Origin: a virus
Taxonomy: Duplodnaviria > Caudoviricetes
DNA length: 64,000 nt
Strand: one strand, 5' to 3'
IMG/VR virus record: IMGVR_UViG_3300037418_002332
In this document: piece by piece, positions 23,441-63,674 of the stretch
Position numbering within the stretch: the first letter of the stretch is position 1
How the letters are laid out: each line of letters opens with the position of its first letter
Notes under the pieces: generated by a model
The model's database searches: none
What the model was told of the DNA's origin: nothing
The model's input: only the letters and a program-made list of their open reading frames with translations
Program-made: the position numbers and the translations under genes

Positions 23441-23658
23441 TGTTTCAAATGAATGAAAAACTACCACCTGAAATGTGGTTGCAAATTTTAGTTGCATATG
23501 TTGAAGAGAACTATAAAGAACACTTTGATACATGGGAAATTTTCACCAGAAATTATGCCAACATGGAAATTTGGCAAGAAGCATACGACGCGGACATTGA
23601 GCCTGAAGATGCTTGGGAAGACGAAATGAGTTATTGGACAGTAGGAGAAAACAGTTGA
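23437..23658 (+). CDS. acidic hypothetical protein
   Basis: ATG overlaps primase stop. Confidence 0.55.
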   Translation: MMFQMNEKLPPEMWLQILVAYVEENYKEHFDTWEIFTRNYANMEIWQEAYDADIEPEDAWEDEMSYWTVGENS

Positions 23659-24050
23659 GCGATACAGAAATTGTAGAAGGAAATTTGGAACAAGGTAATT
23701 TTGATGTGACAGAATTCAAATCAGCATTAGCTAATGGTTCGATAAATTCAGCTTTATTTCAATTCAATTTTGATAATGAGTCAACAATGCCGAACATTCC
23801 ATATTTGGCATTCAAGTATAAATTGTCCCAATCCAAGTTGAAAATTTGGTTTTATGAAACTGAAGATGGTATTTGGATTGACGGTGAAAATACTAAACTG
23901 ATTAAATTGAGTGTTTTCAAGGCTGATGGCACCAAAGCATATACAATTTCACTTGATGTTGAATTTGCGAAAGCTTCAACCAAAGGAAGTTGGGCAACTG
24001 GAAATAAGATTAAAGAATATAAGTTTACATACAGGGTATTGTCCAATTGA
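23655..24050 (+). CDS. degenerate tail-tube (gp19/gp54-like) paralogue
   Basis: FDVTEFKSALANG..SALFQF and SWATGNKIKEYKFTY resemble gp19 N- and C-terminal motifs (recalled). Confidence 0.5.
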   Translation: MSDTEIVEGNLEQGNFDVTEFKSALANGSINSALFQFNFDNESTMPNIPYLAFKYKLSQSKLKIWFYETEDGIWIDGENTKLIKLSVFKADGTKAYTISLDVEFAKASTKGSWATGNKIKEYKFTYRVLSN

Positions 24051-24957: not shown

Positions 24958-27255
24958 ATGTCCATAACAATCAAGAAGCGCAGTGGCGCCGACGAAATTC
25001 TACAAATTGACAAAATCCATAAACAACTTGAATTTGCCTGCGAAGGCATTCACAATGTTTCCGTTTCAGAAATCGAGTTGAGATCGGAACTACAGTTCTA
25101 CAACAACATGACGACTGAAGAAATTCAAGAAACGTTGATTAAGACAGCTGCGGATTTGATCACTGAAGAAACACCAAATTATCAATATGTTGCTTCACGT
25201 TTGATCAACTTCGATTTGAGGAAGAAAGTTTTCGGTGATACTGAACCAAAATCAATCTACGAAATCGTAAAAGCTGGTGTTGCAGCAGGGTTCTATGAAC
25301 CTGGATTGCTAGACTGGTACACTGAATCCGAATGGGATTCTATGAATCGTATGTTGAGACATGAACGTGACTTCAACATTGTTTACGCTGGAATGGAACA
25401 ATTCAGACGAAAGTATCTCGTCAAAAATAAAATCACCGACCAATACTATGAAACACCTCAAATGGTTTACATGTTGATCGCAGCAACAGCTTTCAATATG
25501 GAAGAAAAATCAAAAAGACTAAAGCTGATCAAGGAGTTTTATAATGCAGTTAGTAATTTCGACATTGGCTTGCCTACTGCTATTTTGGCTGGAGTTAGAA
25601 CTCCTATTCGCCAGTTCTCCAATTGTACTCTTATTGACGTGGGCGATAGTCTTGATTCCATTAATGCAGCTGCATCATCTATCGTCAAATACGCTAGCAA
25701 GAGAGCTGGTATTGGTTTCAACGTTGGTCGTCTTCGTGCTATTGGGTCTCCTATTCGTAATGGAGAAGTCACCCACACCGGTGTTCTTCCCTTCATTAAG
25801 TATCTCACTGCTGCATTAAAATCATGTAATCAAGGTGGCATTCGTAATGCTTCCGCAACATGTAATTTCCCAATGTGGCACTATGAATATGAAGACTTGG
25901 TTGTTTTGAAGAATAACAAGGGTGTTGAAGAAGCACGTAATCGTTCAATTGACTATGTCATTCAAATCAATCAAGTTCTACTACAAAGATTGATTGACGG
26001 CAAAGACATTACATTGTTCTCACCATCTGATGTTCCTGATTTGTATGAAGCATTTTTCAGATCAAATGCTGAATTTGAATATCTTTACAACAAGTATGAA
26101 AAAGATAAATCAATTCGTCATCGTAAGATTTCCGCATTGGAAGCTTTCAGCCAATTGATCCTTGAGCGTAAGGAAACAGGTCGTATCTATATTCAATTTG
26201 TTGATAATACCAATGAACATGGTGCATATGATAGTTCAAAGCAAATCATTACCATGACTAACCTTTGTGTTGAAATCACTCCAATCACCAAGCCTCTTGA
26301 TGATGTGAATGATCCAAATGGTATTGTTTCACTATGTACTTTGGCTTCATACAATTTGGGTAATGTAAAGACACCATCTGACTTTGAACGTATGTCTTCA
26401 ATCTTGGTTCGCTTCCTTGATAACATTCTAACATATCAAGATTATTTGCTTCCAGCTGCGAAACATTCAACTGATCTTTACAGAAACATTGGTATTGGCT
26501 TGACCAACTTGGCATATTTCCTTGCTAAGCATAACCAAAAATATACTGATGAATCAACTACTGAGTTTCTTGCTCCGTTCTTTGAAGCATACTCATATTA
26601 CACGATCAAAGCTTCAATGGAATTGGCTAAGGAACGCGGTGCTTGCTTGGGCATCGATGATACCAAATGGAAGCAAGGGTTGACTCCGGTTGATACATAC
26701 CGCAAAACTCTTGACGAATACACCAAAAACGATTTACTTCTTGATTGGAATCAGCTAAAAAGTGATTTGAAAGAGTTTGGTGTTCGTAATGCTAATCTCA
26801 TGGCACAAATGCCTAATGAGACCAATTCTCAGGTCATTAACTCAACCAACGGCATTGAACCACCGCGTTCACTAGTTTCCGTTAAGAGTTCCAAGGATGG
26901 TGCTCTTAAGCAGGTCGTGCCTGAAATTTCAAGATTGAAGAAGCGATATGAACTTCTTTGGGATCAAAAGTCTCCCGAAGGATATCTGAAAATCTGCGGT
27001 CTTTTGACTAAGTTCATTGATCAAAGTATTTCAACAAACACTTCTTACAATCCTGAGTTCTATGAAGACAAAATCATTCCTATGTCAGTGTTGATCAAGG
27101 ATTTAATTACTGCCTATCGTATGGGTATCAAGACCTTGTACTATCACCAAGAAAATGACATGGCTGGTGAAATTGAAATCAAAGCTGAAGTTCCAATCTT
27201 TGTTGAATCAACTGATTCGTTGGAAGATGAGTTCTGCGAAAGTTGTGCCATTTAA
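24958..27255 (+). CDS. nrdA: Ribonucleotide reductase class Ia alpha
   Basis: ATP cone, FSNC, NQGGIR, TNLCVE, NSTNGIEPPR, C-terminal CESCAI. Confidence 0.97.
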   Translation: MSITIKKRSGADEILQIDKIHKQLEFACEGIHNVSVSEIELRSELQFYNNMTTEEIQETLIKTAADLITEETPNYQYVASRLINFDLRKKVFGDTEPKSIYEIVKAGVAAGFYEPGLLDWYTESEWDSMNRMLRHERDFNIVYAGMEQFRRKYLVKNKITDQYYETPQMVYMLIAATAFNMEEKSKRLKLIKEFYNAVSNFDIGLPTAILAGVRTPIRQFSNCTLIDVGDSLDSINAAASSIVKYASKRAGIGFNVGRLRAIGSPIRNGEVTHTGVLPFIKYLTAALKSCNQGGIRNASATCNFPMWHYEYEDLVVLKNNKGVEEARNRSIDYVIQINQVLLQRLIDGKDITLFSPSDVPDLYEAFFRSNAEFEYLYNKYEKDKSIRHRKISALEAFSQLILERKETGRIYIQFVDNTNEHGAYDSSKQIITMTNLCVEITPITKPLDDVNDPNGIVSLCTLASYNLGNVKTPSDFERMSSILVRFLDNILTYQDYLLPAAKHSTDLYRNIGIGLTNLAYFLAKHNQKYTDESTTEFLAPFFEAYSYYTIKASMELAKERGACLGIDDTKWKQGLTPVDTYRKTLDEYTKNDLLLDWNQLKSDLKEFGVRNANLMAQMPNETNSQVINSTNGIEPPRSLVSVKSSKDGALKQVVPEISRLKKRYELLWDQKSPEGYLKICGLLTKFIDQSISTNTSYNPEFYEDKIIPMSVLIKDLITAYRMGIKTLYYHQENDMAGEIEIKAEVPIFVESTDSLEDEFCESCAI

Positions 27256-27623
27256 TGAACAATTTCGATAAAACCCAATTGACATTGCAAATGCTCGAAA
27301 AATTTGATCGGGCAATTGCTTTGGGTGGTAAACATGTTGCCACTGAATATTTGTATTCAGGATTGGGAACCCATAATCGTGATGGCACGTTAACTAAGGA
27401 ATATGGTGGTCAAAGAACAGATGATGATCACCCTGTTCATTCTAAAAAGGTAGAACCACCTGCTGCGAAAATTTCAAATCCAATTTTCACTGTTGAAATA
27501 GAACTTGAATTGGTTCAAGATTTGAAAGCAATAAGCCATCTAAATTGGAAAGATGAATTAGCAAAGGTTCTTGGTACTGAACTGGTGGTACAATACGAAG
27601 AATGGGAAAGAAACAATCCTTAA
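27255..27623 (+). CDS. small protein ending in a major-capsid (gp23) fragment
   Basis: LELVQDLKAISHLNWKDELAKVLGTEL resembles gp23 IELAQDLRAVHGMDADAELSGILATEI (recalled). Confidence 0.65.
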   Translation: MNNFDKTQLTLQMLEKFDRAIALGGKHVATEYLYSGLGTHNRDGTLTKEYGGQRTDDDHPVHSKKVEPPAAKISNPIFTVEIELELVQDLKAISHLNWKDELAKVLGTELVVQYEEWERNNP

Positions 27624-28441: not shown

Positions 28442-29556
28442 TGGAAATCAATGTTGACTACACCAAGAGAAAAATGTTTCTCAATGGTGACGTTTCAATC
28501 GCTCGTTATGATCAATTGAAATATCCAATGCTTGACACATTGGTCAAGCGTCAAAGAAGCTTCTTCTGGCAACCTGAAGAAATTCAAGATATTGGTCGTG
28601 ATAAATCCGACTTCAATCTTCTTCAACCTCATGAAAAGCACATTTTCGTTTCAAACCTTTTGAGACAAACGCTTTTGGATTCAATCCAAGGTCGAGCTCC
28701 TTCTGAAGTTTTCACTCCAATCACCTCAGTTCCTGAGGCTGAAATTTGGACGCAAACTTGGGCTTTCTCTGAAACAATCCATTCATATTCATACACTTAC
28801 ATTGTCAGAAATATTTTTGCCAATCCAAGTGAAGTGTTTGACAAAATGCCGTCCATTCAAGAAGTTGTAGATTGCGGTGTTGATATTTCCAAATTTTATG
28901 ATGAATTAGCAATTTACAATAAATTGGTTGATATTTATGGCTATGATGCAGATGTTGGCCATCACGAAATAACTCTCGATCCATTGAATGAGTATGAGCA
29001 TAAGAAACGTCTTTGGAAGTGTTTGATGTCAGTTAACATTCTTGAAGGCATCCGTTTCTATGTTTCATTTGCTTGCTCATGGGCTTTTGCCGAACGTAAG
29101 ACTATGGAAGGCAATGCAAAAATCATTAAGTTGATTGCGCGTGATGAAAATCTTCATCTGGCTTCAACACAATACATGCTTCGTGAATTGAAGAAAGAAG
29201 ATGCTGACTTTGCACAAATTGCAGAAGAAACTGAATCTGAATGTATTCAAATGTTCAATGAAGCTATTCGACAAGAAAAGGAATGGGCTGATTATCTGTT
29301 CAAAGATGGATCGATGATCGGGTTGAATGCAAACATTCTCAAGCAATACGTGGACTATATAGCAAAACAAAGAATGAAGGCTGTTGACCTACCTTGTGAA
29401 CTAGAAGTGAAAACCAACCCACTTCCATGGACAAATAAATGGATCGGTGGTAAGGAAGTACAAAATGCACCACAGGAAGTTAATATCACCAGTTATCAAG
29501 TTGGTGCTATTAAATCAGATCTTGATTCTGATTCCTTGAAAGGTTTCAAACTTTAA
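28441..29556 (+). CDS. nrdB: Ribonucleotide reductase class Ia beta
   Basis: FFWQPEEI, DSIQGR, ETIHSYSY, EGIRFYVSF, RDENLH, APQE. Confidence 0.97.
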   Translation: MEINVDYTKRKMFLNGDVSIARYDQLKYPMLDTLVKRQRSFFWQPEEIQDIGRDKSDFNLLQPHEKHIFVSNLLRQTLLDSIQGRAPSEVFTPITSVPEAEIWTQTWAFSETIHSYSYTYIVRNIFANPSEVFDKMPSIQEVVDCGVDISKFYDELAIYNKLVDIYGYDADVGHHEITLDPLNEYEHKKRLWKCLMSVNILEGIRFYVSFACSWAFAERKTMEGNAKIIKLIARDENLHLASTQYMLRELKKEDADFAQIAEETESECIQMFNEAIRQEKEWADYLFKDGSMIGLNANILKQYVDYIAKQRMKAVDLPCELEVKTNPLPWTNKWIGGKEVQNAPQEVNITSYQVGAIKSDLDSDSLKGFKL

Positions 29557-29783
29557 TGCCAACTGCAAATACAGTTTTAAATATCAAGCAATATTTTGAT
29601 GTAGAAAATTATGAACCAACTGTTATCTATGACAACAAAATCCATGTGGTCGGTAGATTAAAAAGAACTTACAATGATGTTGCATTTATCTATGCGCCAT
29701 ACATTCCATTGCAAATGGTTGGAGCACCAGCAAATACTGCAATAAAAACGGTTGGATTTAAAACGAGATACGGCATTGTCTGA
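29556..29783 (+). CDS. 75-aa protein carrying gp23 C-terminal block
   Basis: AFIYAPYIPLQMVGA...VGFKTRYGIV resembles gp23 AGIYYAPYVAL...MGFKTRYGI (recalled). Confidence 0.75.
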   Translation: MPTANTVLNIKQYFDVENYEPTVIYDNKIHVVGRLKRTYNDVAFIYAPYIPLQMVGAPANTAIKTVGFKTRYGIV

Positions 29784-30030
29784 GTGGCCAAAAGATACTA
29801 TCTATGATCCACAAATACATGTTATCGGACGAATTGAACAAAATCAATATGATCCAGTTTTGCTTGGCATAGTCAGAAGAACGTGGCCAACGTTGCTTGC
29901 TAATTCAATTATTGGATCGCAAAATATGATGAATCCTTCAGGACAAGTATTTTCACTGAGATCAAAATACAGTGGAGCAACTTCAAATACCCAAACAGTT
30001 ATAATAAAGGACGAAATAGATGGCGAGTGA
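29776..30030 (+). CDS. 84-aa protein carrying gp23 Gol-region block
   Basis: PVLLGIVRRTWPTLLANSIIGSQNMMNPSGQVFSLRSKY resembles PAVMGMVRRAIPNLIAFDICGVQPMNSPTGQVFALRAVY (recalled). Confidence 0.75.
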   Translation: MSEWPKDTIYDPQIHVIGRIEQNQYDPVLLGIVRRTWPTLLANSIIGSQNMMNPSGQVFSLRSKYSGATSNTQTVIIKDEIDGE

Positions 30031-37313: not shown

Positions 37314-38975
37314 ATGACAATCAATTTCACACAATTCCTTACTGAAGCTTCCTTCTCACCGCAAGCTGTTGAAAAGGTGTTGACCATTCTTGTTCGTTTG
37401 ATCGAAAAGAAAATCGGTCAACGTCTATACAGATATGCAGGTGCGAATGGTTTCCAAGAAGTTGAAATCAAGAACCATCCAGGCAAGGGCAAAGGTTTCT
37501 TATATTTCACCACCAAGCAAGTCGCTATCCGTTTCAATTTCGTCAAAGGTGATTTCGTATCAATGAACTTTTGGCAACATTGGGAAATTGGTAAAGCATC
37601 AGATATGTACATCGATTTCGGTGGTGCAAATATCGTTCGAATTGCAAATATCATCGTTGACAAACTGACTTCAGCCGTTCATGGCCAGATCAAAAAAGAA
37701 GTCATTCCAGCCTATCTTCCAGAACAAGCTATTCCTGAAGGTGCTGAACTCATCACTGAACAAGCAGCGAAAAGAGTTACTCCTGAAGAATTCTTTCAAA
37801 TCATGCAAAGCACTTATCCAAATGCTGACTATTCAGAAATGCATTGGAGAGATATTGCAAATGCAGGTGCTGCTGCTGGTGTAGCTGGTATTCCTGGTTT
37901 CGTTAAAGCACAAGCTGTTCCTAACAAGAAGGGTTATTACTCAGTCATCCCTCCTTCTGCTGGCTCTCCTGGTGCTACGGCAGCTGTTTCTGCAAAGCCT
38001 GATCCAATCCTTTACATCAAAGTTACTGCCCAAGACCCAGTTTCAAAGAAGTTCCTTTCAGCTGGTGAATCAAAGCAAGCACAAGACATGTATAACCAAA
38101 TTCAAAATGCTTTGAGTGACAACAGTGCTAACATGGCTAAGAAAGAAATTGAAAACCCAGATACTTTGTTCGGTGCTTTGTCCAACCTTGTTAAGTTGGT
38201 CATCAAAGGAACTAACAAAGCTTTGATGATTTACGGTGGTCCTGGTACAGGTAAATCATTCACAGTCACCAGTGCTATTGAGCAAGCTGGTTTGGTTAAG
38301 AATCGTGATTGGTATCACGTCAAAGGCAAAATCACCACCCAAGCATTGTATGAACTTCTATTCATCCACCGTGATGATAAGATCATTGTATTCGACGATG
38401 CTGACTCAGTTTTCAATAACGAAGATTCAGGTAACATCTTGAAGGCAGCACTTGATTCATACGATGAAAGAATTATCTCATGGCTTTCACCAAGAACTCA
38501 AAACATCGCTAGATTGAACGATGCGCAACGTGAAGCGTTCAATAAGGAAGTTGATAAGAGACTTGCTGAAGACCCATTGGGTGAAGATGAAGTTGAATAC
38601 GATGAAGATACAGGTAAGAGCAAGGTTGTCAAGAAAAAACCTTTGAAGTATCCTTCTGAATTCAGATATGACGGTAGAATTATCTTCATCTCAAACCTTG
38701 GTTTGAAAGATATCGATAGTGCTGTTTTGACTCGTTCATTCAAGATTAACATGGACTTGACTGATGAACAAATGTTCATGCGTATGGAATCAATTATTGA
38801 GCATCTTGGTAATCCAAATTTGACCAAGGAAGAAAAGCTTGACACTTTGAGAGTTTTGAAAGAACGTCATTTGTTGGGTCAACTGAAAAATCCACAAATG
38901 AGAACGTTCGTTGCGGCTTCTAACATCCGTGCTTCCGGTGTACCAAACTGGATTGAACTTTTGAAATATTCATAA
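37314..38975 (+). CDS. P-loop (AAA-like) ATPase with capsid-targeting-like N-terminus
   Basis: GGPGTGKS, IIVFDDAD, IIFISN; N-terminus MTINFTQFLTEA. Confidence 0.75.
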   Translation: MTINFTQFLTEASFSPQAVEKVLTILVRLIEKKIGQRLYRYAGANGFQEVEIKNHPGKGKGFLYFTTKQVAIRFNFVKGDFVSMNFWQHWEIGKASDMYIDFGGANIVRIANIIVDKLTSAVHGQIKKEVIPAYLPEQAIPEGAELITEQAAKRVTPEEFFQIMQSTYPNADYSEMHWRDIANAGAAAGVAGIPGFVKAQAVPNKKGYYSVIPPSAGSPGATAAVSAKPDPILYIKVTAQDPVSKKFLSAGESKQAQDMYNQIQNALSDNSANMAKKEIENPDTLFGALSNLVKLVIKGTNKALMIYGGPGTGKSFTVTSAIEQAGLVKNRDWYHVKGKITTQALYELLFIHRDDKIIVFDDADSVFNNEDSGNILKAALDSYDERIISWLSPRTQNIARLNDAQREAFNKEVDKRLAEDPLGEDEVEYDEDTGKSKVVKKKPLKYPSEFRYDGRIIFISNLGLKDIDSAVLTRSFKINMDLTDEQMFMRMESIIEHLGNPNLTKEEKLDTLRVLKERHLLGQLKNPQMRTFVAASNIRASGVPNWIELLKYS

Positions 38976-40221: not shown

Positions 40222-40424
40222 AAAAATTCACAGAGTTCGTAACTGAAGGTAAAAATATGACAGTCAAACATACTGTTGTATACACTGACACCAATGGTCA
40301 AAAACGTGAAGTTGTCAAATATGGTATGTCAGATCAAAAGGCAATGGCTCATGTTCAGAAATTGCCTGATTTCAAAAGCCATCATCATGTTCGCACCACA
40401 ATGGTGCCTAAGCTTTCTAAGTGA
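40218..40424 (+). CDS. probable internal head protein (IP-like)
   Basis: MKKFTEFVTE resembles T4 CTS MKTYQEFIAE. Confidence 0.6.
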   Translation: MKKFTEFVTEGKNMTVKHTVVYTDTNGQKREVVKYGMSDQKAMAHVQKLPDFKSHHHVRTTMVPKLSK

Positions 40425-40869
40425 AGTGTTCACGTATTTCGGAAAGACTGGTGTAACGTTTTACATTGGTCTTTTTCCATTTATTGATTGATTCATTCAA
40501 CCAATCTTCGGATTCAAGAACTCCCACCAAAACTTGTGCTAGAACTTCACCAAAGTTCACTTCTCCTCTGGTCTTTCCCAAACAAACAATTTCTCGTTTG
40601 AAATTTTCTCGTCCATGGACTTCAACAAGCTTGTTGACTGTCTCTGAAGAACCATAATAATCCTTCCAGTCCGAGTCGAATTTGACTCGCTTCCCCTTCT
40701 TCTTCCGTGAATGTACAAAATATTTTCGGCCGATGTAACGCTTGCCAGTGGTGAGATCGGTGATGCAGTACACGAAGCCTGCATTCTTGCCGATCAGCTT
40801 CTCATCGAATGGAATACCCTTGTAAAGCCATGGAATATATAGAACGTCATCAGTAATCGTAGTCGTCAT
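40417..40869 (-). CDS. GIY-YIG family nuclease
   Basis: GFVYCITDLTTGKRYIGRK, YYGSS, FKREI. Confidence 0.85.
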   Translation of the reverse strand: MTTTITDDVLYIPWLYKGIPFDEKLIGKNAGFVYCITDLTTGKRYIGRKYFVHSRKKKGKRVKFDSDWKDYYGSSETVNKLVEVHGRENFKREIVCLGKTRGEVNFGEVLAQVLVGVLESEDWLNESINKWKKTNVKRYTSLSEIREHFT

Positions 40870-41017
40870 CTTCTTCATCCTCATCGAGTGGAACATCGTC
40901 GATACGAATTCCACAGAATGGGCAAAAGAATTCTTCCGCCGCTTCATCGCACTCATAACGGATGACAAAATCTACATCTGAACAGCTGCAGCTGCTTTCA
41001 AATTTATGTTTAGGCAC
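40850..41017 (-). CDS. 55-aa zinc-ribbon protein with acidic tail (not in ORF track)
   Basis: GTG start, GGAG SD; CSCS...CPFCG...DEDEEDDDYDY. Confidence 0.65.
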   Translation of the reverse strand: MPKHKFESSCSCSDVDFVIRYECDEAAEEFFCPFCGIRIDDVPLDEDEEDDDYDY

Positions 41018-41037: not shown

Positions 41038-41301
41038 TTGAATGAAATGTTGATATCCAGTATAATTAAAAAAGAATATTATGAGTCTATCATAGTGGTA
41101 GACTTGAACGAATTATCCCACGCTGAATATATCAATGATATTGCCGCGTTCTATCTTAAGAACAATGGCTGCATTGAACTCATTCGTAATGCCAAGGATG
41201 CTAATAACGATCTCAAGAAAATGTTTCTCGACATATATAGCTCCTGGAAAAAATACAATGAAAATATCAACATAATCACCCAAGTCATGGAGAATCAATG
41301 A
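41038..41301 (+). CDS. hypothetical protein
   Basis: 87-aa ORF. Confidence 0.45.
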   Translation: MNEMLISSIIKKEYYESIIVVDLNELSHAEYINDIAAFYLKNNGCIELIRNAKDANNDLKKMFLDIYSSWKKYNENINIITQVMENQ

Positions 41302-41858
41302 GTTACGGAAATGTAACCGTTTTCGCTGGACCAATGTTCTGCGGAAAAACATCACATTTGCTACAACAATACATCTGGAAAAATCACGCCAAAGATTACT
41401 CGCTTCTAATCAAACCTGCTTTTGATGATCGTTATTCAATGACGGAAGTCGTTACGCATCTTGGATTGAAAGCAACTGCTGCAAATATTACAGATGCGGC
41501 AAGGATCATGGATTATTTCCAAAACGATCAATATCGAAACTTGATGATCGATGAATGTCAATTTTTCACTGCACCGCACGTTCGCGGTGACATTTTTCCA
41601 TATCTGAAACTGCTTCTCAATCGCGGTGTCAATATATACGCATCGGGACTTGATATGGATTGGATGGGCGAACCATTCGAAGTTACGGCAAAGCTTTTGG
41701 CTATGGCAGATAACGTCCATAAGCTCAAATCAGTTTGTAATTATTCAGGCAAAGAAGCCTCAAAGACATATAAAAAGAGCTTATCTGGTGGATCAGTGGA
41801 ACTTGGTGAAACTGATAAATATGAAGCCAGAAATAACGAATTTTGGAGATACGAATGA
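41298..41858 (+). CDS. tk: Thymidine kinase
   Basis: GPMFCGKT, IDECQFF, GLDMDW.GEPF, KYEA. Confidence 0.93.
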   Translation: MSYGNVTVFAGPMFCGKTSHLLQQYIWKNHAKDYSLLIKPAFDDRYSMTEVVTHLGLKATAANITDAARIMDYFQNDQYRNLMIDECQFFTAPHVRGDIFPYLKLLLNRGVNIYASGLDMDWMGEPFEVTAKLLAMADNVHKLKSVCNYSGKEASKTYKKSLSGGSVELGETDKYEARNNEFWRYE

Positions 41859-42193
41859 CCAACTTTACAAAAGAAGAAACATTGGGTGCTATCAAATGGT
41901 TTCTTCTTGATTTGACAAGAGAACAATTTGCTGAATTCAATGATAAGGAAACAAGATCAAAATTCGTTGAAGTGACAAATGAGTTTTTGGAACGTATGAA
42001 GTTTCATGAAATGATTGAAAACTATATTGTTATTTGCGATGAAACAAATAACACAGAACCTCAAATTGATGCAAATGAATTTAGATCATCGACTTATTTG
42101 AAATTTTCAAACGATCCGGAATTTACATGTTTGAATACTGTGTATGCAAGAACTGGAATTGAATTGGAGCATATAAAGGGGATGATGCCTTGA
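41855..42193 (+). CDS. stand-alone tail-sheath (gp18) C-terminal domain
   Basis: EFNDKETRSKF...YIVICDETNNTEPQIDANEF...LNTVYARTG resembles gp18 C-terminus (recalled). Confidence 0.8.
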   Translation: MTNFTKEETLGAIKWFLLDLTREQFAEFNDKETRSKFVEVTNEFLERMKFHEMIENYIVICDETNNTEPQIDANEFRSSTYLKFSNDPEFTCLNTVYARTGIELEHIKGMMP

Positions 42194-42522
42194 CATATGG
42201 ACAAGCTCTTGCCATAGACGTAAAATTACATTTATCTTTGGAATGGAATAAGCTATTCTTAGCTGAAAATTCCTCAGTAAATAGGGCGATTGTAACCTCA
42301 ACAGCCTGTTCCGTCCTTGATGGAATGGTGATGACTGATGACATTTATGATTTCAAGGTTGTTTGTGATCAAACGAACAATCTGCCTGGCGAAGATAAAA
42401 TCATTGTTGATGTTTATGTGAAACCGAAAAAAGTTGTGCAGTTTGTACATATGTCATGTGTCCTACCTGCTGATGATGGGTATATAATGGGAAGAAAAGT
42501 ATGCAGCAAGAGAGACTTGTAG
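42190..42522 (+). CDS. second stand-alone tail-sheath C-terminal domain
   Basis: IYDFKVVCDQTNN...VDVYVKPKKVVQFV. Confidence 0.75.
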   Translation: MTYGQALAIDVKLHLSLEWNKLFLAENSSVNRAIVTSTACSVLDGMVMTDDIYDFKVVCDQTNNLPGEDKIIVDVYVKPKKVVQFVHMSCVLPADDGYIMGRKVCSKRDL

Positions 42523-43052
42523 AATTATTCAAACATGTAGATCAATTGGCCAGTCAAGAACTTTGGTATTCATTGGACCAAAATCTTCGTGACATGAAAA
42601 CAATGACGCATTCTAGAAATGATCATGAAAGAATTTTGGCAGTTGCGATGGCCAGAGCCTGTTTTCGTTTCAGATCAAAATTGACATATTTTGAAACGTT
42701 TGTTGCGAATGGTATTCATAATTTCCATGACGAAAAACCATGGAGGGGATTACTCACATCAAATGTTATTCATAGCACTGAAATTCCTATGAATGTGCGA
42801 AAATTTTTGAAATCTGATATTGAAAAATTGATAAGCATTCCTCAACGTGTTCTATCAGTCATGGCCGTTCCGCCGGGTGGTAACATACCTCAGATTTTCG
42901 CATTTGAATTGATGAAATCTGAATGGACAACTGGTACTGCATTGCTCAAAGATGCATGGTTTGTATCTCCAGAACGTGATTCAGATCGAATAGAAATTGA
43001 ACGTATGTCAAACCAAATGTATGAATACGAAAAGGAACAAGGAAAGAAATGA
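42501..43052 (+). CDS. hypothetical protein
   Basis: 183-aa ORF. Confidence 0.55.
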   Translation: MQQERLVELFKHVDQLASQELWYSLDQNLRDMKTMTHSRNDHERILAVAMARACFRFRSKLTYFETFVANGIHNFHDEKPWRGLLTSNVIHSTEIPMNVRKFLKSDIEKLISIPQRVLSVMAVPPGGNIPQIFAFELMKSEWTTGTALLKDAWFVSPERDSDRIEIERMSNQMYEYEKEQGKK

Positions 43053-43825
43053 TTAAAGTTTTCGTGGGGACGGATGTAAACGGTGGTTGTGCTGAATGCC
43101 AGATGGTGTTTGAGTACAGCCTTCGCAAACATTCATCTGAACCTGTTGAACTAACTTGGATGAAAATTTCAGATGATCCGGCATCATTTTGGTATGGATG
43201 GAATACAGCAAGGTGGTCAACACCATTCTCAGGTTTCCGATATGGAATTGCAGAATATTGTGGATATCAAGGCAAAGCAATTTACTGTGATGACGATCAA
43301 GTTTGGCTAGACGATCCAGCGAAACTTTGGAACACAGAAATCGCATCCGATAAAATCATGACTGGAAAACAGTTGCCAAACGGTGAAATTCGCCATTGTG
43401 TCTCATTGATTGATTGTGAAAAATGGAGAACTCTTCCACCAGCCTCCAGACGTAAGGCAAATGAAAATTTCACCGAGGCATTTAAGTCCTTGACTTTCCC
43501 TAAAACACAAATTATAAGTGATTCGTGGAATTGCTACGATGGCGAGGATATGGCTTTGTCTGATATCCAATTGCTCCATCTAACAGATATGTCGTCCAAT
43601 CCGGGTGTGCATCTGGCAATCAAGCGTCTTGGTGATCAAGCCAAACATTGGTACGATGGTCCGCTTCGCGATCACCGTCGTCCTGATGTTGTGGAGTTGT
43701 TTCAACAATATTATGATGAAGCATTGGCTGCTGGCTATTCAGTTGCTGATTATATTCCAAATGAACAATTAAATTATGTGAAACAAACGCAGCGAGGATA
43801 TGCAGCGAACAATGGTTGGGAATGA
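43049..43825 (+). CDS. GT-A glycosyltransferase (GT8-like)
   Basis: IKVFVG, STPFSGFRY, AIYCDDDQ DxD motif, LLHLTDM. Confidence 0.75.
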   Translation: MIKVFVGTDVNGGCAECQMVFEYSLRKHSSEPVELTWMKISDDPASFWYGWNTARWSTPFSGFRYGIAEYCGYQGKAIYCDDDQVWLDDPAKLWNTEIASDKIMTGKQLPNGEIRHCVSLIDCEKWRTLPPASRRKANENFTEAFKSLTFPKTQIISDSWNCYDGEDMALSDIQLLHLTDMSSNPGVHLAIKRLGDQAKHWYDGPLRDHRRPDVVELFQQYYDEALAAGYSVADYIPNEQLNYVKQTQRGYAANNGWE

Positions 43826-44231
43826 CGATACTAGTCCGCGTTATGTTACCTATGATGTTGAATTTAACAACTACGAACAACAATACTATTTTGAAAATGT
43901 GTTCAATATCCTTTCAGGACGCATCGATGTAATCTTCAATATTCACAAAATGACACTGTTTAAATGTATCTATCACTACAATAGATTGCATCAAAAAGCA
44001 TTTGATTTTTGGTGTCAAAATGAAAATGAACGCGAAGAATTGAAATCCGCATATGATTATGTTTTCAAATATAAAAATGCTGAAAACAATACGGATTTGT
44101 TCAATTGGTGGGTTGCGGATTTGTCAAAACGCAGTCCAAGACGTAATTTGATTCTCTTGAGTACAAGTAAATCTTTGCTTCAAACTATGAAACCAACACT
44201 CAATGGTTTCTCATTTGTGGTTAATATGTGA
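43800..44231 (+). CDS. paralogous family member 1
   Basis: YDVEF...LFKCIYHY..FDFW. Confidence 0.6.
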   Translation: MQRTMVGNDDTSPRYVTYDVEFNNYEQQYYFENVFNILSGRIDVIFNIHKMTLFKCIYHYNRLHQKAFDFWCQNENEREELKSAYDYVFKYKNAENNTDLFNWWVADLSKRSPRRNLILLSTSKSLLQTMKPTLNGFSFVVNM

Positions 44232-44273
44232 TGAATAAATGGTATTGGGTGAAATTATCAATTTCATATTTGG

Positions 44274-44696
44274 ATGGCGCAACTGATGTCCTACAAATCA
44301 AAATATGTGAATGATGTTGAATGTAAGGATGAGCTTGAGGCTGAAAACTTCAAGGATGTCATAGATTTTCTTGGCCGATTGCACAATCCACCAATTCATA
44401 CATATGACTTCTTCGATGCATTATTTTTCAAAGCTTGCTATCATTATCAACGATGGAGCGGAATAATATTCAATGCTCTGGTGGAAAAAACCATTTTTGT
44501 AGGCGGACCAGCTTTCGTCTGGTATGAAGACATTTATATTCAACGCAACACAGAAAATAACACCAGATTAAGAATTAAACTGCATTTAGAAAAACCATCT
44601 TTGTCAAAAATAGATTTTATTTTGGGAACAAGTGGGGAATTTTTGGATCATTTTCATGGGCATATGATAGCAAGGGTGCGTTTGCATGAGGAATGA
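44274..44696 (+). CDS. paralogous family member 2
   Basis: NDVEC...FFKACYHY. Confidence 0.6.
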   Translation: MAQLMSYKSKYVNDVECKDELEAENFKDVIDFLGRLHNPPIHTYDFFDALFFKACYHYQRWSGIIFNALVEKTIFVGGPAFVWYEDIYIQRNTENNTRLRIKLHLEKPSLSKIDFILGTSGEFLDHFHGHMIARVRLHEE

Positions 44697-45096
44697 AGTA
44701 AGATACACTTCTTATGACATTGAGTTTGAAAGTCAAGAACAAAAAATGACATTCGAAACTGTTCTTGATATGATCACAAATGATGTACCAGGATATTATG
44801 TAATTCCAAGAATGAGGCTATTCAAGTGCACTTATCACTTGAATAGAATTTTTGGTATGGAATTTGATTTTTGGCCAATGTCTGATATTGATCGAGATAG
44901 TATGATGAAAGCATATTCATACGTATATCAAAAGAAAAATGATGCTAATGGTACAACATGTTCAAACCGTTGGCCAAACGAATATGATCGAATTAATTCG
45001 CACAACTCATTGATAATTATGAGTGAGTCCAAATTGAAGATTCAAGATTACGCATCAAACGGATTACTCAAGTGTCATAGATTTTTGGTGGAATAA
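44686..45096 (+). CDS. paralogous family member 3
   Basis: YDIEF...LFKCTYHL..FDFW. Confidence 0.6.
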   Translation: MRNEVRYTSYDIEFESQEQKMTFETVLDMITNDVPGYYVIPRMRLFKCTYHLNRIFGMEFDFWPMSDIDRDSMMKAYSYVYQKKNDANGTTCSNRWPNEYDRINSHNSLIIMSESKLKIQDYASNGLLKCHRFLVE

Positions 45097-48178: not shown

Positions 48179-48802
48179 ATGACCGCCGCATTTACTGAGA
48201 TTCAGACTGCGACTGGTGAATTTTTTGATTATGCGCATTTTTCTGAAACCGATATCCATGAAGAAGATATCGCCCATGCTTTGAGTATGATTTGCAGATT
48301 CAATGGACACTGCTTGAAATTTTACTCAGTAGCAAAGCACCTTTGTTTGGTGCATGATTTGATGGAGTACGATCGTGTCGAAATGAAAAAACCATTGACA
48401 CGTGAAGATGTTTTCCACGGACTAATTCATGATGTTGGTGAAGCATATCTCACCGATATTCCAAGACCATTGAAGAATTACTTTACACAAAGCACTGAAT
48501 TCACTGCTTTCATGGATGACTACATCGATATTGAAAATAGAATCATTGAAGGCTTTGCGCGCAAATATCCATATGGTAAACATGCGCCTCATGCGGCAAC
48601 TGTGAAATACTATGACACATGGGCTTTGTTGCTTGAACAAAAATATCTGATGACCAAAACAAAGAAGGAATGGTCAATAAGTATTGCTGATTATCCTGAT
48701 GAACCTCATTTCGTTAAAGGCATGATGAATCCATTTTTGTATGAAAAAGATTGGGCACGTGAGTTCATGAATAGATTGGAATATTACAATGAAGTTGCTT
48801 GA
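48179..48802 (+). CDS. HD-domain 5'-deoxynucleotidase (YfbR-like)
   Basis: EDIAHALSMICRFNGH, YSVAKH, LIHDVGEAYLTDIPRPLK. Confidence 0.88.
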   Translation: MTAAFTEIQTATGEFFDYAHFSETDIHEEDIAHALSMICRFNGHCLKFYSVAKHLCLVHDLMEYDRVEMKKPLTREDVFHGLIHDVGEAYLTDIPRPLKNYFTQSTEFTAFMDDYIDIENRIIEGFARKYPYGKHAPHAATVKYYDTWALLLEQKYLMTKTKKEWSISIADYPDEPHFVKGMMNPFLYEKDWAREFMNRLEYYNEVA

Positions 48803-49502
48803 CAAAGTCAAGAAATTTTTCAAGAACACTTTTCCTGAGGTCAAAATCGATCCTGAAGTTCAATCAATGGTTGATTTGGGATTGATTTCACCAACACAAG
48901 CCTCGAATGTAACGCAGGTTCCGTTTCAAATTCAAAAGATTCAAGTGACTGCTAAATCAAGAACAATGGTTGCTCAATGGAACCATGAACCTGATTTATC
49001 TGATGAATGGTATTCTGAACGATACAATTTAGATTTTAGCGAATGTCCACAATGGAACAAAGAAATTTATGCAACTGTCTACGATCACTTCGCTGATACA
49101 CAAACTTCCATGTATCCTGTAACATTGACTCGTGAGCTTCCACGTGGATCAGGCAAATCAACCTTTTTCAGAAAGTTGATTGAGAATCTCTACGAAGCCA
49201 TGAGAAATGATCCGAAGTTGATGGTGAATAAAGTTGTTTACATTGGAGCAAATACGACTCAATGCAGAGAATTTTGCAAGTATTTTCTGCAAACCCAAAC
49301 TAACAACTTTCATCAAACAGGATTTTTGGTTTGGACTGCAAATTTGGCTCAAGCTTTGGATAATTCAAAGCTTTATCCGGCTGGCAAAAACATTCTCTAT
49401 ATTTTGGATGATGCTCTCGATGATCCAAATAGCTTCACCACTCAATCAATTAAAGACCGTCATGATAAAGTTATGATAGTCAAACTTTACACACCAAGAT
49501 AA
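48789..49502 (+). CDS. chimera: gp23 fragment plus terminase-like P-loop remnant
   Basis: PFQIQKIQVTAKSRTMVAQW; ELPRGSGKST; YILDD. Confidence 0.55.
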   Translation: MKLLDKVKKFFKNTFPEVKIDPEVQSMVDLGLISPTQASNVTQVPFQIQKIQVTAKSRTMVAQWNHEPDLSDEWYSERYNLDFSECPQWNKEIYATVYDHFADTQTSMYPVTLTRELPRGSGKSTFFRKLIENLYEAMRNDPKLMVNKVVYIGANTTQCREFCKYFLQTQTNNFHQTGFLVWTANLAQALDNSKLYPAGKNILYILDDALDDPNSFTTQSIKDRHDKVMIVKLYTPR

Positions 49503-59131: not shown

Positions 59132-59208
59132 GCTTCCGTAGCTCAGTTGGTTAGAGCAGGGATCTCTAAAATCCTGTGTCGTGGGTTCGAGTCCCACCGG
59201 TCGCGCCA
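59132..59208 (+). tRNA. tRNA with CUA anticodon (amber suppressor-type)
   Basis: D-arm gctc-agttggtta-gagc; gggat-ctCTAaa-atcct; T-arm gtggg-ttcgagt-cccac; CCA; two acceptor mismatches. Confidence 0.8.
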
Positions 59209-62861: not shown

Positions 62862-62944
62862 GGATCGGTGACCCGAGTGGCGAAGGGCGCGGGCTTTTAA
62901 TCCGCTATACAACACCGTGGGTTCGAGTCCCACCCGATTCACCA
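62862..62944 (+). tRNA. tRNA-Lys(TTT) with 11-nt variable region
   Basis: gcggg-ctTTTaa-tccgc; T-arm; ACCA. Confidence 0.8.
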
Positions 62945-62974
62945 AATTTTAAGAAGAATTTTCAAAGAAAGTTC

Positions 62975-63003
62975 TTTACTTTTTGAATCGTTGAAATTAT
63001 ACT
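62975..63003 (+). promoter_or_regulatory. sigma70-like early promoter
   Basis: TTTACT-N17-TATACT. Confidence 0.7.
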
Positions 63004-63091
63004 GAATGTCTTGAGTCGGTTGACTCCGTTCTTTGATAATTGAATACGATTTTCTCAAGCGGTCATTGACCGTTTTGGAAATTTGTATAAT

Positions 63092-63165
63092 GACCATATT
63101 GCCGTCAGGGAAGGCTGTGCGCTGTCTACGCATAAAGGCGGGTTCGAGTCCCGTTATGGTCGCCA
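63092..63165 (+). tRNA. tRNA-Asp(GTC)
   Basis: gaccata/tatggtc; loop ctGTCta; GCCA. Confidence 0.8.
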
Positions 63166-63221
63166 TATTGGATCAATCAGTAATTCGCAGTAGCAACTGT
63201 GTTTGGTCGGTCCTAATCCTT

Positions 63222-63311
63222 TGCGGGATTGAGAAGTCAGGTCTATCTCCCCGGTCTCATAAGCCGGTGCACCGAAAGTGCTCAGTGGTTCAAATCCACT
63301 TCCCGCAACCA
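63222..63311 (+). tRNA. tRNA-Met(CAT), fMet-like, with extra variable arm
   Basis: ccggt-ctCATaa-gccgg; T-loop ttcaaat; ACCA. Confidence 0.8.
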
Positions 63312-63346
63312 TTTCGATTGGAGTTATGAACCAATCAATGAAATAT

Positions 63347-63429
63347 TGGAGTGTGACTGAAAGGTAAAGTGCCCGGCTGTTAACCGGAGGCCCCATGTGG
63401 AGCAGGATCGTTACCTGCCACTCCAGCCA
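63347..63429 (+). tRNA. tRNA-Asn(GTT), atypical
   Basis: tggagtg/cactcca; loop ctGTTaa; T-loop atcgtta. Confidence 0.7.
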
Positions 63430-63441
63430 ATTCTATAATTT

Positions 63442-63499
63442 GGGCTCACGCTAGGACGCATCCCGGGAATAAGGGGTTCGAATCCCCATGAGTCCACCA
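63442..63499 (+). ncRNA. 58-nt tRNA-like RNA without anticodon loop
   Basis: gggctca/tgagtcc acceptor, gggg-ttcgaat-cccc T-arm, ACCA. Confidence 0.65.
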
Positions 63500-63515
63500 A
63501 TTTGAAGTGTTATAT

Positions 63516-63593
63516 TCCGGTGAGGCGAGCAAGGTGCACGCAGCTGACTGTTAATCAGATTTCAGGTAGGTTCGATTCCTATCTCCGGAGCCA
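63516..63593 (+). tRNA. tRNA-Asn(GTT)
   Basis: loop ctGTTaa; T-loop ttcgatt; GCCA. Confidence 0.8.
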
Positions 63594-63597
63594 ATTT

Positions 63598-63674
63598 ACT
63601 GCGATCTGCTAATGGACGAGGCGATCTGGTTCTCAGCCAGGGAAATGCGGGTTCGAGTCCCGTTCGCAGTACCA
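63598..63674 (+). tRNA. tRNA-Glu(CTC)
   Basis: actgcga/tcgcagt; tctgg-ttCTCag-ccagg; ACCA. Confidence 0.82.

What the first reader, a model, noticed from the sequence alone, without database searches (positions are those of the whole stretch)
41855..42522. Tandem pair of stand-alone tail-sheath C-terminal domains after thymidine kinase
Both roughly 110-aa ORFs keep the VVCD.TNN...(D/E)F...Y.KP/F...F core of gp18 but lack the other about 550 aa of a sheath. The two copies differ strongly from each other. This domain mediates sheath polymerisation, so they could cap or poison sheaths or act as decoys.
Basis: partly seen in the sequence, partly recalled or inferred. Interest (0 to 1): 0.75.

Follow-up and report, generated by a model that had tools for sequence, protein, structure and literature searches.

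The report
Free-standing tail-sheath handshake domains, in tandem
Right after the thymidine kinase gene, an uncultured soil T4-like phage carries two small coupled genes that each encode only the last ~110 residues of a tail sheath (the part that locks sheath rings together); they belong to an undescribed, fast-evolving family of such mini-proteins whose job, probably to bind sheath contact partners, is untested.

Summary
ORF1 (41855-42193, 112 aa) and ORF2 (42190-42522, 110 aa, TTG start in a TTGA overlap) both align to T4 gp18 from about residue 548/571 to the C-terminus. ORF1 passes the Pfam Phage_sheath_1C cut-off. ORF2 passes only through PHROG and PDB-sequence searches. With an alignment, ORF1 folds confidently (pLDDT 88) and superposes on solved T4-type sheath C-domains at 1.1-1.5 A.

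They do not look like decaying gene pieces. The best hits in 1.8 billion representative proteins are colinear proteins of 109-117 aa. On a tree these, both window ORFs and five relatives with Tat-like signal peptides separate from 117 full-length sheaths (96% SH-aLRT), on long branches.

The family lies in accessory slots of T4-like phages, mostly replication modules and twice between gp2 and TerL. One such phage also has a normal sheath and a gp15 homologue.

The family keeps the fold core and the C-terminal strand but has lost sheath-conserved basic motifs.

Function is inferred. The most likely role is a soluble handshake module that binds sheath arms or the tail terminator and so modulates polymerisation. 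Decoy and co-opted roles remain open.

The same window also carries capsid (gp23) fragment mini-genes. An ORF1-ORF2 co-fold gave only weak support.

The parts
41298..41858 (+). Thymidine kinase gene (186 aa), the upstream neighbour; its TGA stop overlaps the ORF1 ATG (ATGA)
   Evidence: Pfam TK 119 bits and PHROG thymidine kinase E 9e-35; sequence read
41845..41849 (+). Shine-Dalgarno-like GGAGA, 5 nt before the ORF1 ATG, inside the end of tk
   Evidence: Read directly from the sequence
41855..42193 (+). ORF1, 112 aa: a free-standing copy of the sheath C-terminal (handshake) domain plus C-terminal strand, equivalent to T4 gp18 residues ~548-659
   Evidence: Pfam PF17482 29.2 bits, above the cut-off. 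PDB phmmer E 1e-10. AF2 with alignment: pLDDT 88.4, pTM 0.81. Foldseek and VIA superpose it on T4 and KP1 sheaths at rmsd 1.1-1.5 A over 77-79 residues.
42035..42052 (+). ORF1 codons 61-66, CDETNN: the invariant motif shared by all sheaths and all short family members
   Evidence: Invariant columns C61, D62, N65, N66 in alignments A1 and A2
42176..42181 (+). Shine-Dalgarno-like AAGGGG, 8 nt before the ORF2 TTG start
   Evidence: Read directly from the sequence
42190..42522 (+). ORF2, 110 aa, TTG start overlapping the ORF1 stop (TTGA): a second, much more diverged copy of the same domain. It keeps the core (FxxN, VVCDQTNN, YVKP, QF) but has lost the conserved C-terminal strand motif.
   Evidence: PHROG tail sheath E 2.3e-7. 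PDB sheaths E 1.4e-5. tblastn of full sheaths hits 42268/42343-42462. Protein-language features match the same clusters of short viral proteins, score 0.96. pLDDT about 75 in the co-fold.
42364..42381 (+). ORF2 codons 59-64, CDQTNN: the same invariant motif
42501..43052 (+). Downstream gene (183 aa, no family hit) that overlaps the end of ORF2 by 22 nt; part of the same tightly packed + strand gene string

Best explanation
Shown: the two genes encode free-standing, independently folding copies of the C-terminal 'handshake' domain of a T4-type tail sheath. This is two helices plus a small beta-sheet and the C-terminal strand, equivalent to gp18 548-659. They sit in the replication and nucleotide-metabolism module and are translationally coupled to tk and to each other. 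They cannot be sheath subunits. They belong to a fast-evolving family of ~110-aa proteins that uncultured T4-like phages carry in addition to a normal sheath gene.

Inferred: in a tail this domain is the platform onto which the N- and C-terminal strands of the next sheath ring dock by beta-sheet augmentation. [quoted passage not shown] The free domain most likely uses the same edge-strand chemistry as a soluble competitor or cap. It would bind the free arms of unassembled sheath protomers or the terminator's sheath-binding domain. It would thereby hold back, cap or mis-terminate sheath polymerisation, whether of the phage's own sheath before baseplates are ready or of a co-infecting myovirus. 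The two paralogues may act as a heterodimer, with ORF1 giving its retained C-terminal strand to ORF2, which has lost its own.
For: Homology and register: both ORFs align to the last ~90-110 residues of T4-type sheaths. By the phmmer register, ORF1 residue 1 falls at gp18 548, the start of the structurally defined C-terminal domain (548-631; PMC12929629, read).

Fold: pLDDT 88.4. Model residues 9-86 superpose on KP1 sheath 555-632 at rmsd 1.1 A, Z 9.0. The T4 sheath gives rmsd 1.5 A over 79 columns.

Role of the domain: papers read describe it as the acceptor of the handshake strands and of the gp15 strands.

A real, retained family: the top hits in 1.8 billion representatives are colinear 109-117-aa proteins. 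They split from full-length sheaths with 96% SH-aLRT. In a 153-kb phage contig the closest relative coexists with a 639-aa sheath and a gp15 homologue. It is only 42% identical to that sheath, so it is an old paralogue rather than a fresh fragment.

Selective retention: the family keeps FEFND, TR, VVCDETNNT, ID.NEF, Y, K, F and the C-terminal RTGV.FEEI.G strand. It has lost the sheath-conserved NVRRLF, GRRG and P-A-R-S-I-N motifs.

Coupling: ATGA and TTGA overlaps with Shine-Dalgarno-like sites.

Co-fold of ORF1 with ORF2: weak support. Score 0.60 against a best control of 0.00. The mark was reached by 58 of 80 solved complexes and 2 of 110 mismatched pairs, but scores of 0.60 or under came from only 7 of those 80 and from both mismatches that passed. 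The runs agree in at least 61% of contacts and the partner's pLDDT is at least 74. My own alignments were used, so these counts hold only roughly, and the pass may reflect likeness to solved sheath contacts.
Against: Sheath C-domains are very conserved across T4-like phages (median terminal branch 0.16), so a generic poison would also hit the phage's own tail.

The monomer model folds the last two strands back onto its own sheet. The family-specific turn (F-x-G/N-D-P-E in place of P-A-R-S-I-N) could favour that closed form, which would occupy the acceptor site.

Five relatives carry Tat-like signals, which would place them where no sheath assembles.

Most family members lie in replication modules among accessory genes. 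Together with the long branches, this also fits arms-race functions unrelated to tail assembly.
Confidence: 0.4

Rival explanations
1. The domain has been co-opted for a target unrelated to tails. The handshake fold would serve as a general small binding module against a host or phage protein, as the gp25-like protein IraD became an anti-adaptor of RssB. The Tat-bearing relatives would work in the periplasm, for example in superinfection exclusion, and the cytoplasmic pair here would act on a host factor.
For: Terminal branches are 1.2-6.2 substitutions per site against a median of 0.16 for sheaths, and sheath-conserved basic motifs are lost. Five clusters have RR-type signal peptides, with Pfam TAT_signal at 13-18 bits (below the cut-off) exactly at residues 1-20. 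Most members lie in replication or early-type modules next to accessory genes such as Macro, SNase and NADAR-like. The closed model also resembles IraD (Z 8.3) and gp25 (Z 8.1).
Against: The C-terminal handshake strand motif and the CDETNNT loop stay conserved in most members, as expected if the ancestral contacts still matter. Two members sit between gp2 and TerL among late genes. No alternative partner is known. Z values near 8 are common for small alpha/beta folds.
Confidence: 0.25
2. Anti-defence decoys. Mini-proteins copied from conserved virion proteins would be made early to occupy host immune sensors that recognise structural proteins without activating them. The sheath pair would be one part of a set that also includes capsid pieces.
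For: The same window carries two mini-genes with Pfam Gp23 hits above the cut-off (29556-29783 at 30.3 bits, 29752-30030 at 45.6 bits) and two weaker gp23-like blocks. Fragments of virion proteins are therefore a theme in this genome. The family is sporadic, fast evolving and sits in accessory slots. The sheath C-domain is the most conserved part of the sheath, which would make it a plausible pattern for a sensor.
Against: My literature searches found no defence system reported to sense a tail sheath. Binding usually activates such sensors, so a fragment could as easily trigger them. There is no PADLOC hit and no link to a known anti-defence family. Tat-exported members do not fit cytoplasmic sensors.
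Confidence: 0.2
3. Non-functional relics of an old partial duplication of the sheath gene, perhaps moved by the nearby homing endonuclease, that happen still to be open.
For: ORF2 is highly degenerate (Pfam below the cut-off, terminal branch 6.2) and has lost the C-terminal strand motif. A SegE-type GIY-YIG endonuclease gene lies 0.9 kb upstream at 40417-40968. No expression data exist.
Against: Both frames are open over the whole domain. For 110 codons at 38% GC the chance is about 5e-4, by my own estimate from base composition. Both have ribosome-binding sites and coupled starts. The domain boundary matches the structural domain. The invariant core residues are kept even in ORF2. ORF1 folds with high confidence. 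Colinear relatives at 32-40% identity exist in other phages, which requires long-term selection.
Confidence: 0.1

Closest known systems
C-terminal domain of the T4-type tail sheath protein gp18 (Pfam PF17482, Phage_sheath_1C; T4 gp18 residues 548-659)
   Same: Clear sequence homology at 33-44% identity, with the same two helices and beta-hairpin, the same invariant FEFND and VVCDxTNNT motifs, and in ORF1 the same C-terminal strand. The model superposes at 1.1-1.5 A.
   Different: It is not part of a ~650-aa subunit. It has no N-terminal arm and no Phage_sheath_1 or domain I-III region. The sheath-conserved NVRRLF, GRRG and PARSIN motifs are replaced. It evolves roughly ten times faster and is encoded in the replication module.
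gp25 / TssE sheath initiator (GPW_gp25 family) and other baseplate 'handshake domain' proteins
   Same: A small stand-alone protein of ~110-130 aa whose beta-sheet accepts sheath terminal strands. The closed model of ORF1 aligns to T4 gp25 over about 92 residues (Z 8.1).
   Different: There is no sequence relation to GPW_gp25 and the rmsd is 4 A. ORF1 and ORF2 derive from the sheath itself, are not in a baseplate gene cluster, and come as a diverged tandem pair.
C-terminal domain of the tail terminator gp15 (caps the last sheath ring by beta-sheet augmentation)
   Same: The proposed way of working: a small beta module that pairs with the sheath C-domain sheet and stops growth.
   Different: Unrelated in sequence. 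The relative's phage has its own gp15 homologue (199 bits), so the short protein does not replace it.
IraD (a gp25-like fold recruited as an anti-adaptor of RssB in E. coli)
   Same: A precedent for a contractile-tail handshake-type fold working as a free regulatory binder. Foldseek prob 0.96, VIA Z 8.3 against the ORF1 model.
   Different: No sequence similarity and a different evolutionary source. The resemblance in function is only an analogy.

Membership tests
Phage_sheath_1C domain (PF17482) | Score above the Pfam gathering cut-off (26.9 bits) | tested here: met
   ORF1 scores 29.2 bits, E 1e-6, profile positions 33-91 of 104. The first ~32 profile positions are absent, so ORF1 holds the last two thirds of the Pfam domain.
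Phage_sheath_1C domain (PF17482) | The same cut-off, applied to ORF2 | tested here: inconclusive
   ORF2 scores 14.7 bits, E 0.033, below the cut-off. It is still significant against PHROG tail sheath (E 2.3e-7) and against solved T4-type sheaths (E 1.4e-5), with the invariant C-D-x-x-N-N motif kept.
Phage_sheath_1C domain (PF17482) | Fold of the sheath C-terminal domain (two helices plus antiparallel strands) | tested here: met
   ORF1 model pLDDT 88.4. rmsd 1.1 A over 77 residues to KP1 sheath 555-632 and 1.5 A over 79 columns to T4 gp18. ORF2 was not folded alone; its pLDDT was about 75 in the co-fold.
Tail sheath protein (gp18 / Phage_sheath_1, a polymerising subunit) | Full subunit with N-terminal arm and Phage_sheath_1 (PF04984) core | tested here: not met
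   The ORFs are 112 and 110 aa, have no PF04984 hit, and align only to gp18 residues ~548-659. No further sheath sequence lies in the window.
Tail sheath protein (gp18 / Phage_sheath_1, a polymerising subunit) | Located with tube and other tail genes; one copy per genome | tested here: not met
   The ORFs lie after tk among replication genes. An earlier unchecked scan note places the real sheath about 31.5 kb before the window. A related phage carries both kinds of gene.
gp25 / TssE sheath initiator (GPW_gp25) | Sequence membership in GPW_gp25 and a baseplate-wedge gene context | tested here: not met
   There is no GPW_gp25 hit in Pfam at E up to 10 and no baseplate genes nearby. The only link is a distant fold resemblance, Z 8.1 at rmsd 4.0.
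Free-standing sheath C-domain family (proposed here) | About 105-120 aa, colinear from the first helix to the C-terminal strand, with F-x-(G/N)-D-x-E-F where sheaths have P-A-R-S-I-N-F | tested here: met
   ORF1 matches P0004, P0005, P0006, P0012 and P0097 end to end at 32-40% identity and carries KFSNDPEF. It groups with them on the tree. ORF2 groups with the family on the tree but keeps the sheath-like K-P at this site.
Free-standing sheath C-domain family (proposed here) | Coexists with a full-length sheath gene in the same phage | tested here: inconclusive
   Met for the closest relative: a 153-kb contig has P0004, a 639-aa sheath and a gp15 homologue.

The most novel reading that the evidence does not exclude
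This phage, and other uncultured T4-like phages, would keep a set of mini-proteins copied from conserved pieces of their own virion proteins and express them early. Here that set is two sheath handshake domains and at least two gp23 capsid pieces. They would act as molecular mimics. One option is competitive decoys that blind host sensors of structural proteins. The other is dominant-negative or exclusion factors against co-infecting myoviruses, with Tat-exported versions acting in the periplasm on the exposed tail of a superinfecting phage. That would be a new class of phage weapon built from structural-protein fragments.
Probability: 0.2. Interest if true: 0.85.

Novelty: new variant of a known kind. 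Interest (0 to 1): 0.6.

Why it matters
The handshake domain is the universal joint of contractile injection machines: phage tails, tailocins, T6SS and eCIS. A natural, soluble, free-standing version of it has not, as far as I could find, been described.

If it binds sheath arms or the tail terminator, it would be the first phage-encoded trans-acting regulator or inhibitor of sheath polymerisation. It would also be a ready-made tool for probing or blocking contractile systems.

If instead it is a decoy or a co-opted binder, then together with the capsid-fragment genes in the same genome it points to a general way of recycling virion-protein pieces into accessory functions.

Either way, a conserved family of unknown-function proteins in environmental T4-like phages becomes directly testable.

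Tried and rejected
1. This phage's own sheath could not be obtained. No whole genome is held. Exact-pattern scans of viral contigs and metagenome contigs found nothing. The contigs that carry ORF1 gave no DNA. ORF-versus-own-sheath identity and a co-fold with the own sheath were therefore not done.

2. The single-sequence AF2 model of ORF1 was useless (pLDDT 38). Only the alignment-based model was used.

3. blastn of the region against 50,697 phage records found no match. tblastn with ORF1, P0004 and P0012 hit about 2,200-2,500 records with essentially one place per record. Every listed hit with a gene annotation lay in the sheath gene, once mislabelled as terminase. Stand-alone copies are thus essentially absent from cultured phages at this sensitivity.

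4. The word-indexed protein search with the family profile was swamped by contig-end fragments of ordinary sheaths and was not used to size the family.

5. T4 late-promoter motifs: TATAAATA occurs twice and ATAAATA ten times in the window, no more than in shuffles. The sigma-70 and terminator scans were at background. No timing inference was made.

6. Sequencing runs: no RNA holder is listed. Contigs from four soil or rhizosphere runs laid on the region were identical where they covered it, so there was no population variation for a selection test.

7. PADLOC and NCBIfam gave no meaningful hits for six family members.

8. Literature searches for free-standing sheath C-domains, for sheath-sensing defence systems and for structural-protein decoys found nothing relevant.

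9. The idea that the short protein replaces gp15 is rejected for the relative's phage, which has a gp15 homologue.

Full report
WHAT IS THERE. The window is almost entirely + strand. It is the replication and nucleotide-metabolism module of a T4-like phage: gp43 DNA polymerase, UvsX, gp41 helicase, gp47-type exonuclease, NrdA/NrdB, topoisomerase II subunits, thymidine kinase and DNA ligase. The same sequence lies on contigs of up to 250 kb and in soil and rhizosphere metagenomes.

Directly after tk (41298-41858) come two small genes. ORF1 is 41855-42193 (112 aa); its ATG overlaps the tk stop as ATGA, with GGAGA 5 nt upstream. ORF2 is 42190-42522 (110 aa); its TTG overlaps the ORF1 stop as TTGA, with AAGGGG 8 nt upstream. 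The next gene overlaps the end of ORF2 by 22 nt.

Another gene caller called only the last 63 codons of ORF2. The sheath homology starts upstream of that ATG, so the 110-codon reading is preferred.

ORF1 passes the Pfam cut-off for Phage_sheath_1C (29.2 against 26.9 bits) and hits PHROG tail sheath at E 1e-11. ORF2 is below the Pfam cut-off (14.7 bits) but hits PHROG tail sheath at E 2.3e-7.

Against the sequences of solved structures, both align to T4-type sheaths. ORF1 residues 17/24-110 match residues 563/571-657 of 656/659 (E 1e-10 to 6e-9). ORF2 residues 21/27-94 match 571/575-646 (E 1.4e-5 to 1e-4).

tblastn of ORF1 against 50,697 phage genomes hits about 2,200 records. Every listed hit with a gene annotation lies at the 3' end of the sheath gene, at 22-43% identity. 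The two copies are only 29% identical over 42 residues. No other sheath sequence lies in the window.

WHICH PIECE OF THE SHEATH. By the phmmer register, ORF1 residue 1 corresponds to T4 gp18 residue 548. The recent in situ T4 structure defines the gp18 C-terminal domain as residues 548-631: two helices and two antiparallel strands, conserved in all contractile systems. [quoted passage not shown]

Other structures show that in the body of the tail this same domain accepts the N-terminal strand of one subunit and the C-terminal strand of its neighbour, both from the ring nearer the head. This is the 'handshake' (bioRxiv 10.1101/2021.12.18.469577; PMC13433997). ORF1 is therefore exactly that structural domain plus the C-terminal strand region.

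With an alignment of 98 relatives, AF2 gives pLDDT 88.4 and pTM 0.81. The elements are helices 6-23 and 31-50 and strands 54-60, 76-84, 90-98 and 101-109. Model residues 9-86 superpose on the Klebsiella KP1 sheath 555-632 at 1.1 A (Z 9.0), and on T4 gp18 at 1.5 A over 79 columns.

The last two strands do not superpose in cis. In a real sheath they reach to a neighbour; in the monomer model they fold back and complete the protein's own sheet. That gives a closed alpha/beta unit that resembles gp25 (Z 8.1) and IraD (Z 8.3) at a level common for small folds.

NOT A STRAY FRAGMENT BUT A FAMILY. In an exhaustive HMMER search of 1.84 billion representatives, the best hits after self are colinear short proteins: P0004 (117 aa), P0005 (116 aa), P0006 (109 aa), P0012 (109 aa) and P0097 (115 aa), at 31-39% identity. 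Full-length sheaths come only after these. Other short hits with the sheath-type KPARSINF motif look like contig-end fragments and were set aside.

Five further clusters (P0016, P0037, P0039, P0115, P0130) have the same domain behind an N-terminal RR-x-F-x-K/hydrophobic/AxA stretch. Pfam TAT_signal hits three of them at residues 1-20, at 13-18 bits, below the 22.7 cut-off.

Five others (P0030, P0050, P0087, P0118, P0146) have longer N-terminal extensions and are more sheath-like.

On a tree of 135 C-terminal regions, the 13 short and Tat-type proteins, including both window ORFs, are separated from the 117 full-length sheaths and the five N-extended proteins by a branch with 96% SH-aLRT. Their terminal branches are 1.2-6.2 against a median of 0.16. 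Long-branch attraction cannot be excluded, so a single origin is likely but not proven.

The protein-language atlas also places both ORFs next to clusters of 55-239 short viral proteins of 103-121 aa. Only some members of those clusters carry the Pfam domain. The family may therefore be larger than the few members I examined.

WHAT THE FAMILY KEEPS AND LOSES. It keeps FEFND, T-R, L45, (D)F-x-VVCDETNNT, ID-x-NEF, Y81, K83, F90, L-N, and in most members the C-terminal R-T-G-V-x-F-E-E-I-x-G strand. It has lost three motifs that are nearly invariant in sheaths: N-V-R-R-L-F at the start of helix 1, G-R-R-G before strand 1, and P-A-R-S-I-N between strands 2 and 3. The last of these is replaced by F-x-(G/N)-D-P-E.

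My inference, not tested: the lost basic motifs serve contacts that matter only in a tube-bound polymer, and the new turn may favour the fold-back of the C-terminal hairpin. ORF2 keeps the K-P but has lost the C-terminal strand motif. It is by far the most diverged member.

GENOMIC SETTINGS. P0004 and P0006 lie between gp2 (DNA end protector) and the large terminase, next to gp3-like, gp53-like and hub-like genes. P0012 and P0130 lie after uvsX, gp41 and an SNase among small ORFs. P0097 and P0118 lie in the gp55-gp47 slot. P0115 follows a Macro-domain gene. P0039 lies between gp43 and a dCMP deaminase, on 23 contigs. The window pair follows tk. The family thus occupies variable accessory slots, mostly in replication modules.

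The 153-kb IMG/VR contig with P0004 also encodes a 639-aa sheath 77 kb away and a gp15 homologue at 199 bits. P0004 is 42% identical to that sheath, no closer than to foreign sheaths. The short gene is therefore an old paralogue, not a recent fragment, and it does not replace gp15.

For the window's own phage, an earlier unchecked scan note places the sheath and tube genes about 31.5 kb before the window. I could not reach that DNA.

A WIDER THEME IN THIS GENOME. Following earlier scan notes, I checked two mini-genes after nrdB. The 75-aa gene at 29556-29783 hits Pfam Gp23 at 30.3 bits (profile 301-349). The 92-aa gene at 29752-30030 hits at 45.6 bits (profile 3-48). Both are above the 24.4 cut-off. 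Two more ORFs (27243-27623 and 48789-49502) carry weak gp23-like blocks at E 0.016. A proposed tube paralogue at 23613-24050 gave no hit. So this phage keeps several small genes made from pieces of virion proteins in its replication module, and this bears on the interpretation.

HOW IT MOST LIKELY WORKS. Shown: domain identity, fold, family, coexistence with a true sheath in a relative, retention of the handshake strand, and gene coupling. Inferred: a free handshake domain acts through the same beta-sheet augmentation as in the tail. It would bind free sheath arms or the sheath-binding domain of the terminator, and so delay, cap or mis-terminate polymerisation.

The tandem pair may form a heterodimer. 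A co-fold of ORF1 and ORF2 gave weak support. The score was 0.60 against a best control of 0.00. The mark was reached by 58 of 80 solved complexes and 2 of 110 mismatches, but scores of 0.60 or under came from only 7 of those 80 and from both mismatches that passed. The runs agree in at least 61% of contacts, and the partner's pLDDT is at least 74. My own alignments were used, and likeness to solved sheath contacts may explain the pass.

Four points weigh against the main reading. No binding was tested. Sheath C-domains are so conserved that a generic poison would hit the phage itself. The closed model may bury the acceptor edge. Tat-bearing relatives would not meet a sheath.

I therefore give the sheath-contact reading 0.4, a co-opted binder 0.25, a decoy role 0.2 and relics 0.1. 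Relics are unlikely: both frames are open (about 5e-4 by chance for ORF2, my estimate from composition), the starts are coupled, the invariant core is kept, and colinear relatives exist at 32-40% identity.

COMPARISON AND NOVELTY. By descent these are Phage_sheath_1C domains. By architecture they are not sheath proteins. By proposed action they resemble the gp25/TssE initiator or the gp15 C-domain, but they are members of neither family.

I found no paper that describes free-standing sheath C-domains. Cultured phages essentially lack them. I rate this a new variant of a known kind and of moderate to high interest. The domain assignment is solid, the family is real and undescribed, and the function is open but directly testable.

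Noticed in passing
window 29556-29783 and 29752-30030 (+): Two overlapping mini-genes (75 and 92 aa) right after nrdB carry pieces of the major capsid protein. Their Pfam Gp23 scores are 30.3 bits (profile 301-349) and 45.6 bits (profile 3-48), both above the cut-off. They share a leader-like motif (IYDNKIHVVGRL and IYDPQIHVIGRI).
   Followed up: partly
window 27243-27623 and 48789-49502 (+): Two more ORFs have short, weak gp23-like blocks (Pfam Gp23 E 0.016 each, profile 153-183 and 127-157). The second also has a weak terminase or P-loop-like stretch (PHROG terminase large subunit, E 0.0015).
   Followed up: partly
It gave no PHROG or Pfam hit at E up to 0.1.
   Followed up: partly
window 59132-59208 and 62862-63674 (+): ARAGORN calls a tRNA with a CUA anticodon (labelled tRNA-Pyl, so a possible amber suppressor) and a cluster of six further tRNAs (Lys, Asp, Met, Asn x2, Glu).
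   Followed up: no
window 40417-40968 (-): A SegE-type GIY-YIG homing endonuclease (Pfam 123.9 bits) is one of the few minus-strand genes here. It lies 0.3 kb upstream of tk and 0.9 kb upstream of the sheath-domain pair.
   Followed up: no
window 43800-45096 (+): Three consecutive ORFs of 136-143 aa look like diverged paralogues, sharing motifs such as F-K-C-x-Y-H-x-N-R and F-D-F-W. None has a family hit.
   Followed up: no
L020 8001-8426, L030 4387-4830, L032 8001-8438 (other phages): Relatives of the sheath C-domain family carry N-terminal twin-arginine (Tat-like) signal peptides and lie in replication modules of T4-like phages. One of them is found on 23 contigs. This would mean a sheath-derived domain is exported to the periplasm.
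   Followed up: partly
P0118 (ENA contig, no DNA) and L021 1050-1397: The slot between gp55 and gp47 holds a stand-alone sheath C-domain gene in two different phages. The longer forms (P0118, P0087, P0030) have N-terminal extensions. In P0118 the extension includes an I-S-P-G-I-D-V-x-E-x-D-L-S stretch that recalls the sheath N-terminal arm.
   Followed up: partly
window 37314-38975 (+): A 553-aa protein with an AAA/P-loop core (PHROG 1250, E 1e-38; weak Pfam AAA) and no assigned function lies 3 kb upstream.
   Followed up: no
L029 (G001:C1:116294-116518, -): The 153-kb relative phage also has a weak partial Gp23-like block (profile 119-161, E 3e-4) in a 217-aa frame far from its capsid gene. 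It resembles the weak blocks in the window.
   Followed up: no
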